Assembly (NCBI RefSeq): GCF_006345805.1
Contig: NC_042998.1
Span: 118,978,001-119,042,000, forward strand
Origin: Octopus sinensis
Taxonomy: Eukaryota
Direction: 5' to 3'
Length of the DNA stretch: 64,000 bases
The position numbers and the translations under genes are program-made. Shown here piece by piece: positions 62 through 54,059 of this stretch. The notes under the pieces were generated by a model that saw nothing but the letters and a program-made list of their open reading frames with translations, ran no database searches and was not told where the DNA came from. The number at the start of each line of letters is the position of its first letter. Position 1 is the stretch's first letter.

Positions 62-154
62 CCAACAAAAGAAATAAAAATAAGTTGTAGAAAAGACAGG
101 TAGGACTATCAAATTTGTATTAAGTAAAACACGTGAGTGAATCACGTGTCAAAA

Positions 155-538
155 TAATTGTGTAGTATGTTCTACAAACCCACATACGAACTGCAAAAAG
201 AAAAACACTGTATACCAGATTAAGTGCCAAGAAGGAAATTGCGCTATTATCCCAGAGTCATATTCGCGAGACTTCTAGGAGAACCAATGACAAGTTCAAA
301 GAACAGTTGGACAACTACATTGAAAAAAGATCAAACTCCATCGTTCTATCAGCATGCTGTAGACTTCCACAATGGCTCCTTAGGGAGACTTAAGTTAGAC
401 ATCTTATCTACACATCACACTGATGAATTGCTAACGCAAGTCACAGAAGCTGTCTGTATACAGGAATATAAACCCACACTCAACCGTAAATCCGAATGGA
501 GTTTCACCCAGATTCCACACGGGACTACCCATCTATAA
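155..538 (+). mobile_element. Penelope-like element relic, GIY-YIG endonuclease C-terminus (frameshifted)
   Basis: Manual translation NCVVC..NCKKKNTVYQIKCQEGNC..Y(I)RETSRRTNDKFKEQ, then ORF 224-538 FYQH..EAVCIQEYKPTLNRKSEW. This fits the CxxC / VY.I.C / YIGET / EA..I...P.LN pattern of PLE GIY-YIG domains. Confidence 0.8.
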
Positions 539-1159: not shown

Positions 1160-1431
1160 GTGTGTGTGTGTGTATGTATATATGTGTGTGTGTTTGTATA
1201 TATATACACACACACAAACAACCTTCGAGAGTGTAACAGTCTTATATGCAACTTGAGCAGACACATATATCAGTACGTAAACATACGTCCACATGAACGT
1301 ACACATATACACAGACACAGACACGTCTACACATTGACATACCTAAATACTCACATATATACATAAGTACGTACGTACATACATATATATATCATGAACT
1401 AACTGTTACTTTCTCACATGCAGCACGGAAT

Positions 1432-1482
1432 TTTGTCAGTGAACAGGTCGCGGTCTGAAAGCGACGAAAATATTTTGACAAA
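1432..1482 (+). ncRNA. Minimal type I hammerhead ribozyme, G3:C8 core variant
   Basis: TTTGTCA-GTGAACA-G-GTCGC(ggtctgaaa)GCGAC-GAAA-ATAT-T-T-TGACAAA: 7-bp stem I, 5-bp stem II, palindromic stem III (AATATT). Confidence 0.7.
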
Positions 1483-3013
1483 TTAAATTTAACGGTTTTT
1501 GTTTGTTTTTAAATGGCTTATAAACACTTTCCATGCTGCATTTGTTTCTTTGCTTTTTTTTTTCTTTTCGTTATCGGATAAAGAACTCGAAACTTTTGAA
1601 TCATTTACAATTAACTATATTTAAAAAGCGAGTCGCTGATTTCCTTGCGCTATCAATATATACGGTTTTGTCATTTCTTTTTCATATGACCGTGACTTTT
1701 TTATCCTTCCCTTCTTCAGCCTTCGCATAAACGCGAATTCCCTTACCCTTCTTGAAAGTTCCCGCTTTACTCTCTTCATTTAGTTACTTTATTATGATAT
1801 TTATATAGTCATAATACTCACTCATTAATATACGATTTCTTTATTATTGTATTGTAACCGTTATAGCCCAATGAATTTTTATTTATATTCTTATATTTTC
1901 TCTGTAATATTTTCTCGTTGCCGGTCATAGGATTTATATTTCACTATTTTCGGAGTTCCTTTCCTTTCTCTTCTTTTGTGTCTCTATCCTTTTTTCTCCT
2001 TATCTATTTTCATGTATACTTAGTTGTCTCATAGTTTTCTAACCCTATTGATATTATTTCTGACATTATAACTAAATATTTTGCCAACCTATGATAATTT
2101 AGTTAAATATGTATAATAATTATCCAAGCATTATAATCTCAGTAATTATAGGCATCGTTTTGGCATGATTATTCAGAACCCATATATACCAGCGATTTAC
2201 ATTAAAGTTCATAGTTGTATTTTGAAGCGGTAACCAGTAACTCTTATTAACAGCGCCGTACAATCTTAGTTTTAATTCTTATTACATTAGTAGTAAGAAA
2301 CTCTAGGGAGAGCTTCGTAACTATCATGCAAGTCTTTCGAGTTTAAAATTTCTTCAGTTTGTATGACTTTATTCTTGATGGTGATGTAGAGCTACCAGTG
2401 TACTGAACAATTTTATTCTTTAATCAAGAAAGGTATTTCTGCGTCATTATTTCATGGCGGTGGCCACACATGATCCAGGCTTCGTGAAGAAAAGACTAAG
2501 AAAACTTCTTGTCGAATATCTACAAACGTTATATGCAATAATTCTTTTCGCTTTATTGTATATATATTTCTTTATATATTTGCTCTTTGTCATAAATCTT
2601 CTATAAACTGAATCCATATCAGTCAATTTGACATTTCTGCCTACGAGGCCCAAGACGTAAACAAGCAGTAATATGTTGCGCGAAACACAGTTTATTTTAA
2701 CGAGGTACCTCTTGAAAATCACTTGCAGAGACACATCTGTCACGAGGGATGCACCTCAACCCGTTGCATAGTACCCCACTCGCGTGGGATCGATGCTAGA
2801 TGGATCGAAACGATTGTCGTGACCAATAAAGATTCTCGTATATTCCATCTTCCGTCTCTCTCATTAATTACATACTCGATGAACTCTGGAGAATTCCTGG
2901 GCTAAATCCAGCGACTTATATAATAATACAGCAGATAACTTCAGCTAGCCATAAACAGTGAACGTGCTTTACCGGCAAACTACCAGGAGTATACTATATA
3001 CTTAATTAAATTC

Positions 3014-40459: not shown

Positions 40460-42459
40460 TATAAAGAAAAAAGACAGGGTAGAAAATGCTAAAATAGTTT
40501 TATCATGAAGTACATTTTAGTACTGGTTTCCGTCGTTTAGACGTTTTCAACTAAAAGTAAAGTAAGGAAAACAATTAAATTGGAGAAACAAAAATAAGTG
40601 AAATGTTTTGTAAATATTTCCAGTCTTCATAAAGGTAAATATTTCCAAAGTCTTCAGATAGTCTGGCTCTCTCTCTCTCTCTTCTTTTGTGAATGCATGG
40701 TAGATAGTAGTAAGTTTGAAGAGAAAGTTTATGAGTAAGAATTGATGGTTTTAGCCGGAGTCACCGAGAAGAAGAAGAAGAAGAAGAAGAAGAAGAAGAA
40801 GAAGAAAAGAAGTGGAGGAGGAGGAAGAAGGAGGAGGGGGTGGAGGAGGAGGGGGAGGAGGAGGAAAAGTAGGAGTAGGGAAAGAGGAAGAAGGAGAAAG
40901 AAAATAAAAATAAAAATACAGAAGTGCTGTGACGCAGAAGATCGTTCGTGGAATCTTCTTTATTCGTCAAATGACCTAAAAGTGACATTTGTGGCCGTAG
41001 CAGTAGTGGTTGGAATTGTTCTAAATTCTTGTAGTAGTTTCATCCGTGGAGGCATTCAAATTAGGTTTATATTTTGCGATAAAAATACTTCCTTGCTAAT
41101 GCGCTGTTTATAGGATGCATTGAATTTATAGAGGGGAAAAATTCTAAAGTTGGGTTGTTCGGTAGTGGCGCAAATATCCATGTGCTCGCTTAATTCTATT
41201 TTTCTGTATTCTCGTATTTTAATTTGTGATCTATGTACCGTCATTCTCTGGTGTAGACTGTTTTTAGTTTGACCAATATATTGTTCTCGACATCCTGGGC
41301 AAGTTAATACATATATTAAGTTTTTCGAAGCACATGTGAAATTGTTTTTCACTGTAAAACTTACACTCTGAAGGAGAATTCTGATCCCTGAATTAGGTTG
41401 ACACATATACCACAGTTAGGTCTTGCGCATTTTTTGCAATCGTTTTCAATGTTGTAGACAAGTATACTTGGACCTGTGTTAGCAGACTTTCATTGACTTG
41501 GGCTGTCTTGTGCTCTTTATGATGGTGTGCGTCTGGAGGATTTGATCCATTTTGTGGTTTCTTTTTATTAAAAGGATGTTCTGGAGGATGGTGTCAAAGG
41601 CGCCATTGTTTAGGTGGTTGTGCGTGCATATGCATGGCAGGCCTTTTGGTTGTAAATCCTTCTTTAGTTTGGGGTGTCTGAGTTCGTGAATATTGAGTTG
41701 TAGGGTACTTTGAAAGCCTATATCATTTAGTGGTAGTGGGTAGTTTCTGCTGATGAGTGTATATTTTAGCTTATGCAGTCATGTATCAGATACTTGTGCT
41801 TGTATCAGATGCGTTAATACAAATCCTTTTTGCCAGGTTGTAAGGGATATTCATTCTAATGGGATGGCATGAGTTGAATGGCAGATATTGCTTGGAGTCC
41901 GTGGGCATGTAATATATGTCTGTTTCTATTTTGTTGTTCGATTTCTTAATGAGGATGTTGAGGAATGGAAGTTGTTGGTGGCTATATTCCATCATAAATT
42001 GAGTATTTATATCACATCCATTCAGAAGTGCTTGAAATTCTTGAAGTCTCTCTATACTTTCGTTCCAAAGAATGAAACAGTCATCTAGATATCTTTTCTA
42101 GTTATTTTCTATGAACAGGGAGTATTGGTTTCCGTATTTTTCTAGTACCCTGCATTAAAGACAGATTTCTAGGTACCCTATGACTAGGTTAGCAAAGGAG
42201 GTAGCCATTGGAATTCGCAATTGCAGTCCCCGATACCTGTCGATAGAAGTTGTCATTGAATATGAAGAAGTTATTTTACAAGATGAATCTTAGTCCTTCT
42301 ATTACGAATTCTTTTTTCATGCGGTGTAGGACTTTATTCGAGTAATTATCTAGCCAAAATTGAATTGCCTCTATAAACTGCTTCTGCTTAAACCACCATT
42401 TCTCTGTACTCATAAACTACCCCTTCAAATTTACTACTACCTACCTACCAAGCGTTCAG

Positions 42460-53830: not shown

Positions 53831-53899
53831 TGACCGCGTGTGTACCGTTGGAGATTTTTTTCCTCCGTCTTCCCTTCCTTAGATCTTTCCTTTTCCTAT

Positions 53900-53934
53900 G
53901 TTTCTGACGAAGAGCTCCGCTCGAAACGTTAAAC
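53900..53934 (+). ncRNA. Minimal hammerhead ribozyme in short non-coding element (~53835-54048)
   Basis: GTTT-CTGACGA-A-GAGC(tcc)GCTC-GAAA-CG-T-T-AAAC; palindromic ACGT. Confidence 0.8.
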
Positions 53935-54059
53935 CCTCATTATTTCCTTCTTTCCTGAGCGTCCAATAATACTATACTTGTTCCACGTCCTCGCGTTGTT
54001 GTGTTTTTTCTTTGTGTTTTTTCTTTGTGTTTCATGTTTGGATTAACCATATATATATG

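What the first reader, a model, noticed from the sequence alone, without database searches (positions are those of the whole stretch)
1432..1482. Natural G3:C8 swapped-core hammerhead
Seen: the core reads GUGAACA instead of CUGANGA, between a perfect 7-bp stem I and a 5-bp GC-rich stem II, followed by GAAA. Known: C3-G8 is a tertiary Watson-Crick pair, and the compensatory swap restores activity in engineered hammerheads. Inference: two simultaneous changes that preserve this pair suggest a selected natural isoform, which CUGANGA-based searches would miss. The cleavage triplet would be UUU, which is unusual.
Basis: partly seen in the sequence, partly recalled or inferred. Interest (0 to 1): 0.8.

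Follow-up and report, generated by a model that had tools for sequence, protein, structure and literature searches.

The report
Swapped-core hammerhead in octopus Penelope element
An octopus jumping-gene family carries, in thousands of copies, a hammerhead self-cutting RNA motif whose two paired core letters are swapped compared with its sister families; it likely still cuts slowly, which would make it a natural form so far found in print only as a laboratory rescue mutant.

Summary
Confirmed, and it is a family consensus. The motif lies in the terminal repeat (pLTR) of a 5'-truncated Penelope-like retroelement whose endonuclease remnant fills window 82-520. The swapped 19-mer occurs 5,708 times in the genome; none of the C3:G8 hits inspected belongs to this family. 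Two related Penelope families keep C3:G8 in the same scaffold, with a compensatory A-U/G-C change in helix II, so the swap is real but a single evolutionary event. The extra G after A9, the palindromic 2-bp helix III and the UUU site fit Penelope minimal hammerheads. An engineered C3G/G8C Penelope hammerhead partly regains cleavage (PMC11167929). In the papers I could read, natural 3:8 covariation is reported only as U3-A8. Cleavage is not shown: no read-end pile-up, no clear excess of copies starting at the cut site, and a sister family amplified with an uncompensated A9C core. Hundreds of copies begin with an extra G at one fixed start, likely a copied cap, so uncleaved RNA was the template. 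The scan noted G3-C8 candidates in two other genomes (unchecked).

The parts
82..520 (+). Frameshifted remnant of the C-terminal linker and GIY-YIG endonuclease of a Penelope-like element. The RT remnant continues about 1.3 kb upstream of the window start.
   Evidence: Three-frame translation; 40 scored genomic copies at 82-87% apart from the window itself carry open RT/EN frames; tblastn of the intact sister ORF on L099
521..1391 (+). Microsatellite-rich 3' untranslated region of the element
   Evidence: Shared with other copies
1392..1540 (+). 3' pseudo-LTR; this copy has an internal deletion after about 1490 and lacks the roughly 50-nt tail of longer copies
   Evidence: Alignments of genomic copies; the same repeat lies directly upstream of the ORF in L364
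1416..1416 (+). Position matching the inferred transcription start of the family RNA (this copy has a private change at 1417)
   Evidence: Copies start here with an extra G: 378 G against 113 A/T; 18 of 25 in the held loci. Cap origin is inference.
1432..1438 (+). Helix I, 5' strand
1439..1445 (+). Core G3 U4 G5 A6 A7 C8 A9 (swapped 3:8 pair)
1446..1446 (+). Extra nucleotide between A9 and G10.1, typical of Penelope minimal hammerheads
   Evidence: PMC4209133
1447..1465 (+). Helix II (5 bp, G10.1-C11.1) with a 9-nt loop that varies between subfamilies
1466..1469 (+). G12 A13 A14 A15.1
1467..1476 (+). 10-nt palindrome containing the 2-bp helix III; predicted to pair between two motifs (dimer)
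   Evidence: dimer model from PMC4209133
1473..1475 (+). Predicted cleavage triplet UUU; the cut would fall between 1475 and 1476
   Evidence: Homology to the hammerhead numbering; cleavage untested
1476..1482 (+). Helix I, 3' strand

Best explanation
This is the minimal type I hammerhead motif of an octopus Penelope-like retroelement family in which the C3:G8 core pair has become G3:C8, and it likely still cleaves, slowly and probably only as a dimer or with help from the element's protein. Shown: the element context, the consensus status of the swap, and homology to C3:G8 sister hammerheads. Inferred: the RNA starts capped about 23 nt before the core; the 2-bp helix III keeps a single motif nearly inactive; two motifs (5' and 3' pLTR, or tandem copies) pair through the palindrome and cut after U17; uncleaved RNA is the usual template for reverse transcription, which gives the many short pLTR-only copies.
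For: 5,708 exact copies, control 0. Sister family F2 has C3:G8 with the same helix I base, extra G and helix II (143 exact hits) and a related ORF (37-51% identity). Young family F3 has C3:G8 in the same scaffold (ORF about 53% identical). In a 12-row alignment of four families the 3:8 pair is CG in 7 and GC in 5 rows, helix II is 100% paired with AU 6 / GC 6 at one pair, and the slid controls are far lower. U4, G5, A6, G10.1-C11.1, G12-A15.1 are invariant across the families. Within the family, common non-CpG variants hit 5 of 9 loop-2 positions and 1 of 42 core or helix positions, that one an A-to-G wobble (p = 0.0003, with C8>G counted apart). In an anole Penelope hammerhead, C3G and G8C each abolish cleavage, the double mutant partly restores it, cleavage needs the element protein, and uncleaved RNA is the main insertion substrate (PMC11167929, passages).
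Against: No cleavage test was possible. The swap is one event on one branch, so the pair counts are not independent. F3 amplified to 2,555 exact copies with an uncompensated A9C core, against 712 with A9, so this lineage tolerates core changes. G3:G8 copies number 195, about five times the other transversions (about 35 G3>C, about 38 C8>A), and the one near-full-length copy seen has G3:G8 in its 5' pLTR. The core is not significantly more conserved than the 3' flank (1 of 42 against 3 of 32, p = 0.31). RNA reads of a related species show no pile-up of ends. Only 1 of 134 inverted partner copies starts at the cut site.
Confidence: 0.6

Rival explanations
1. The hammerhead fold is kept for a non-catalytic role (protein binding, RNA folding near the start of the transcript or near the reverse-transcription start) and no longer cuts at a useful rate; the 3:8 pair is kept for structure or is a relic of an earlier active stage.
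For: A9C family amplified with intact ORFs; capped, uncleaved RNA appears to be the template; cleavage is not needed for insertion in vitro (PMC11167929); Naiad elements spread without canonical hammerheads (PMC8557442, passages); minimal hammerheads cleave poorly in vitro (PMC4209133).
Against: The 3:8 pair is a tertiary pair of the active conformation (PMC3884650, passages), so keeping it complementary points to selection on the catalytic fold; the other core bases are unchanged across families.
Confidence: 0.28
2. The two substitutions were fixed by drift in one master element whose hammerhead was already dispensable, and their complementarity is coincidence; copy number reflects the success of the element only.
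For: One event only; position 8 changes to G unusually often; high copy number itself says nothing about selection.
Against: Rough estimate (my arithmetic, no call): two changes among 13 core sites falling on 3 and 8 and giving a Watson-Crick pair is about 1/78 x 1/3. Helix II also shows a compensatory change and the loop, not the core, varies between subfamilies.
Confidence: 0.1
3. The motif is a chance hairpin, or its letters are set by an overlapping reading frame, and it is not descended from a hammerhead.
For: Rfam gives no hit.
Against: It aligns base for base with canonical hammerheads of related families and lies in the pLTR where Penelope hammerheads lie. In L364 all three frames across the 5' pLTR contain stops before the long ORF begins. 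Chance rate 0.033 per window.
Confidence: 0.02

Closest known systems
Minimal type I hammerheads of metazoan Penelope-like elements (Cervera and de la Pena 2014, PMC4209133)
   Same: Location in pLTRs, extra nucleotide after A9, G10.1-C11.1, short palindromic helix III, U17 sites including UUU, thousands of mostly truncated copies, opposite-strand pairs
   Different: Core is G3:C8. The 56-row alignment (parts 1-2 of 3 of the supplement read) shows CUGA or UUGA cores only. Helix I is longer (7 bp against 4-5), and the extra nucleotide is G where their consensus gives H.
Natural U3-A8 hammerheads (Perreault et al. 2011, PMC3088659, section 8 read; Schistosoma and Saccoglossus rows in PMC4209133)
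   Same: Natural compensatory change at the 3:8 pair
   Different: U3-A8 keeps pyrimidine-purine order (two transitions); here the pair is inverted (two transversions) and position 8 is a pyrimidine.
Engineered C3G/G8C double mutants (anole Poseidon PAc hammerhead, PMC11167929; review PMC8495972)
   Same: Same core letters; one case is itself a Penelope hammerhead
   Different: Laboratory controls with partial rescue, not natural; different scaffold
Neptune/Nematis-type EN+ Penelope-like elements (PMC8557442)
   Same: RT followed by CX3CxxC linker and C-terminal GIY-YIG with cysteines between the two motifs, pLTRs, inverted 5'-truncated copies, tail, microsatellite targets
   Different: Clade not placed by a tree against named references; Pfam gives only a weak RVT_1 match below cut-off.

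Membership tests
Hammerhead ribozyme (type I) | Three-way junction with helices I, II, III | tested here: met
   Helix I 7 bp, helix II 5 bp, helix III 2 bp in a palindrome
Hammerhead ribozyme (type I) | Literal CUGANGA core sequence | tested here: not met
   GUGAACA; no Rfam hit
Hammerhead ribozyme (type I) | Watson-Crick complementarity at 3:8 and the other core bases (U4 G5 A6 A9, GAAA, U16.1, H17) | tested here: met
Hammerhead ribozyme (type I) | Site-specific self-cleavage after H17 | not testable with these tools
   Indirect tests gave no clear signal
Hammerhead ribozyme (type I) | Loop 1-loop 2 tertiary contact of fast natural hammerheads | not tested
Penelope minimal hammerhead | Located in the pLTR of a Penelope-like element | tested here: met
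Penelope minimal hammerhead | Extra nucleotide after position 9; palindromic 15.2-16.2 region | tested here: met
Penelope minimal hammerhead | Cleavage as a dimer | not testable with these tools
   The palindrome can form an intermolecular duplex (-4.6 kcal/mol), but the unconstrained two-strand fold was not the double hammerhead
EN+ Penelope-like element | Single ORF with RT and C-terminal GIY-YIG endonuclease | tested here: met
   Motifs read in natural copies; best hit an Octopus vulgaris RT-domain protein, 53%; Pfam weak
EN+ Penelope-like element | pLTR on both sides of the ORF, inverted 5'-truncated copies, tail | tested here: met
   5' pLTR before the ORF in L364, 3' pLTR in the window and others; 134 inverted partners; tail present or absent. 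No single copy with both pLTRs and an intact ORF was seen.
Neptune or Nematis clade | Placement in an RT tree with named clade members | not tested
   Only the CX3CxxC linker motif was seen
Non-LTR retrozyme | Head-to-tail tandem arrays of short hammerhead units without an ORF | tested here: not met
   Copies are dispersed, single or inverted pairs, and linked to an ORF; few direct tandems (L008, L073)

The most novel reading that the evidence does not exclude
This is a catalytically active natural G3:C8 hammerhead, the first genome-scale example, and one octopus Penelope lineage has run a natural experiment on the core (C3:G8, G3:C8, A9C) that tunes cleavage down so that capped, uncleaved RNA can serve as template; searches keyed on CUGANGA have missed a recurring class of such ribozymes.
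Probability: 0.4. Interest if true: 0.7.

Novelty: new variant of a known kind. Interest (0 to 1): 0.52.

Why it matters
Position 8 supplies the general acid and the swap is the standard laboratory rescue control, so a family of about 6,000 natural copies widens the natural core consensus and shows that descriptor searches under-count hammerheads. Three related families with different cores in one scaffold give a ready panel for the open question of what Penelope hammerheads do. The extra-G footprint places the likely RNA start just before the motif.

Tried and rejected
Rfam at gathering score: 0 hits. A loose genome pattern for other swapped-core families gave 2,281 hits against 2,015 in the control, so no further large family was seen. 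Run search: no RNA holder listed. Raw RNA reads of a related species (about 6% of each of three runs) cover the repeat in both directions, with no place where many molecules begin or end; a cDNA library has little power for this. Contigs of four coded organisms span the motif, but the tool lists differences only away from contig ends, so positions 3 and 8 were not directly read. Truncation at the cut site: estimated 61 copies (CI 47-74; 49 without microhomology cases) against 21, 30 and 79 at neighbouring positions, from 44-49 inspected hits each; inconclusive. G3:G8 as an older intermediate subfamily: rejected, since divergence is the same (31 against 98 copies, p = 0.27), it occurs in at least six loop-2 types, and the inverted partner had C8 at 6 of 9 loci. 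A 3' splice site reading of CTAAC...TTTCTCAG was considered; only one letter (G) is constant before the start, which fits a cap better, but splicing is not excluded. The MITE reading from the 1415-1430/1529-1544 inverted repeat was dropped once the ORF was found. PDB search of a relative: 0 hits. Literature: nine answered searches plus one search found no natural G3:C8 report. Przybilski and Hammann 2007, Lunse et al. 2017 and Martick and Scott 2006 were not held; Lunse et al. describes Penelope hammerhead variants and could hold a prior case. Supplements of Perreault 2011 and Craig 2021, and part 3 of the Cervera supplement, were not read.

Full report
Observation. Window 1432-1482 reads TTTGTCA GTGAACA G GTCGC GGTCTGAAA GCGAC GAAA ATATTT TGACAAA. 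Helix I (7 bp) and helix II (5 bp) are perfect and appear in the predicted fold. The core has G at position 3 and C at position 8. There is one extra G after A9, and the 2-bp helix III lies in a 10-nt palindrome. A descriptor for this architecture hit 2 times in 60 resampled windows. Rfam finds nothing at gathering score.

It is a repeat family. The window lies in a 2.72-Gb genome that encodes near-identical matches to a protein named Octopus vulgaris, so the host is an octopus. The exact 19-mer over the swapped core occurs 5,708 times, control 0. With the same flanks, G3:G8 occurs 195 times, G3 with A or T at 8 151 times (75 T and 25 A among 100 listed, hand count) and non-G at 3 216 times (57 A, 27 T, 16 C among 100 listed, none C3:G8). 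G3:C8 is therefore 5,708 of 6,270. A C3:G8 pattern gave 8 hits, all with flanks of other families. Copies differ by about 4% from the column majority.

The repeat is the pLTR of a Penelope-like element. Homology between copies runs upstream through a microsatellite-rich region to window 82 and beyond. Window 82-520 is a frameshifted GIY-YIG endonuclease. Other copies carry open frames with RT motifs (GGAIG, YVDD), a CX3CxxC linker and the endonuclease. The RT remnant of this copy extends about 1.3 kb upstream of the window. L364 has the pLTR directly before the ORF, with stops in all three frames across the motif. Inverted 5'-truncated partners, an optional tail and (TA)n flanks match the description of Penelope-like elements in PMC8557442 (passages). 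The clade was not placed by a tree.

Related families give the covariation. Family F2 reads GTCA CTGAAGA G GTCAC AGATGT GTGAC GAAA (143 exact pattern hits); 4 of its 38 inspected loci carry a related ORF piece. Family F3 is young, has intact ORFs of about 1,000 codons, is about 53% identical in protein to the window's family, and has C3:G8 in the same scaffold. In a 12-row alignment chosen by me from four families, 3:8 is CG 7 / GC 5, helix II is fully paired with one AU/GC exchange, and helix III shows AU/GC/GU. Outer helix I pairs hold only within families (66.7% paired). These rows are related, so the swap counts as one event. Since published Penelope hammerheads have C3:G8 or U3:A8, G3:C8 is the derived state.

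Within the family, among 158 copies not picked by a core pattern, common non-CpG variants fall in loop 2 (5 of 9 sites) and at one helix I site as a wobble; the core is otherwise stable (p = 0.0003). The core is not significantly more conserved than the 3' flank (p = 0.31). C8>G is the exception: about five times the other transversions, spread over subfamilies, same age, usually on one copy of an inverted pair, and more frequent than at a control site of like context (195 of 346 against 3 of 14, p = 0.013). Some other sites in the repeat also show C>G at 3-6%. I cannot explain it.

How it likely works. Many copies begin at the 1416-equivalent with one extra G (378 G against 113 A/T in a pattern that left out one subfamily; 18 of 25 in held loci, with variable letters before the G). 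I read this as a reverse-transcribed cap; the cap-G precedent from other retroelements is recalled, not checked. The RNA would then start 23 nt before the core, and these templates were uncleaved. That agrees with the anole Penelope study, where cleavage needs the element protein, C3G/G8C partly rescues it, and unprocessed RNA is the main substrate (PMC11167929, passages), and with the dimer model for motifs with a short palindromic helix III (PMC4209133, parts 1-2 of 4 read). I put slow, dimer- or protein-dependent cleavage at 0.6.

Evidence against. F3 spread with an uncompensated A9C core (2,555 against 712 exact copies); that A9 changes are damaging is recalled from the mutagenesis literature. 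RNA reads of a related species show no end pile-up. Copies starting at the cut site are not clearly in excess. The unconstrained two-strand fold was not a double hammerhead.

Comparison with what is known. It works like, and by position and anatomy belongs with, Penelope minimal hammerheads; it fails the literal CUGANGA consensus and its activity is untested. Natural 3:8 covariation is reported as U3-A8 (PMC3088659 section 8; PMC4209133). G3:C8 appears only as an engineered variant in what I read (PMC11167929; PMC8495972 and PMC3884650, passages). Searches found no natural case, but three key papers were not held. The scan's own notes list two unverified G3-C8 candidates beside Penelope-like RTs in other genomes. 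UUU has a precedent in a Crassostrea gigas Penelope hammerhead.

Verdict. A real, high-copy, natural G3:C8 variant of the Penelope hammerhead, supported by homology and one clear covariation event, with activity unproven. New variant of a known kind; interest 0.52.

Noticed in passing
L214:4640-4690 and related loci (family F3): A young Penelope family with intact ORFs carries a hammerhead with A9 changed to C (CTGATGC-G): 2,555 exact copies against 712 with A9.
   Followed up: partly
window 1416 equivalent in family copies: Hundreds of copies start at one fixed base with an extra G, likely a reverse-transcribed cap marking the transcription start.
   Followed up: partly
core position 8 (window 1444 equivalent): C-to-G change about five times more frequent than other transversions, arising repeatedly across subfamilies; unexplained.
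   Followed up: partly
window 53899-53935 (+): Canonical-core minimal hammerhead-like motif (CTGACGA A GAGC TCC GCTC GAAA CGTT) of another repeat; related sequence also seen in L070 and L085.
   Followed up: no
window 40515-40556 (-): U3:A8 hammerhead-like motif with a 6-bp helix I; its central 23 bases are single-copy in the genome, so it may be chance or a decayed copy.
   Followed up: partly
window 1398-1417: CTAAC followed by a pyrimidine tract and CAG in family copies resembles a branch point and 3' splice site; it coincides with the inferred start site.
   Followed up: partly
RNA runs X21-X23 laid on L018:1502-1735: RNA runs show many more A>G and T>C sites than the DNA run of the same organism, as expected from A-to-I editing of inverted repeat copies; not checked against DNA of the same individuals.
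   Followed up: no
L063, L062, L066, L067: Further repeat families with C3:G8 hammerhead-like motifs on a similar helix II.
   Followed up: no
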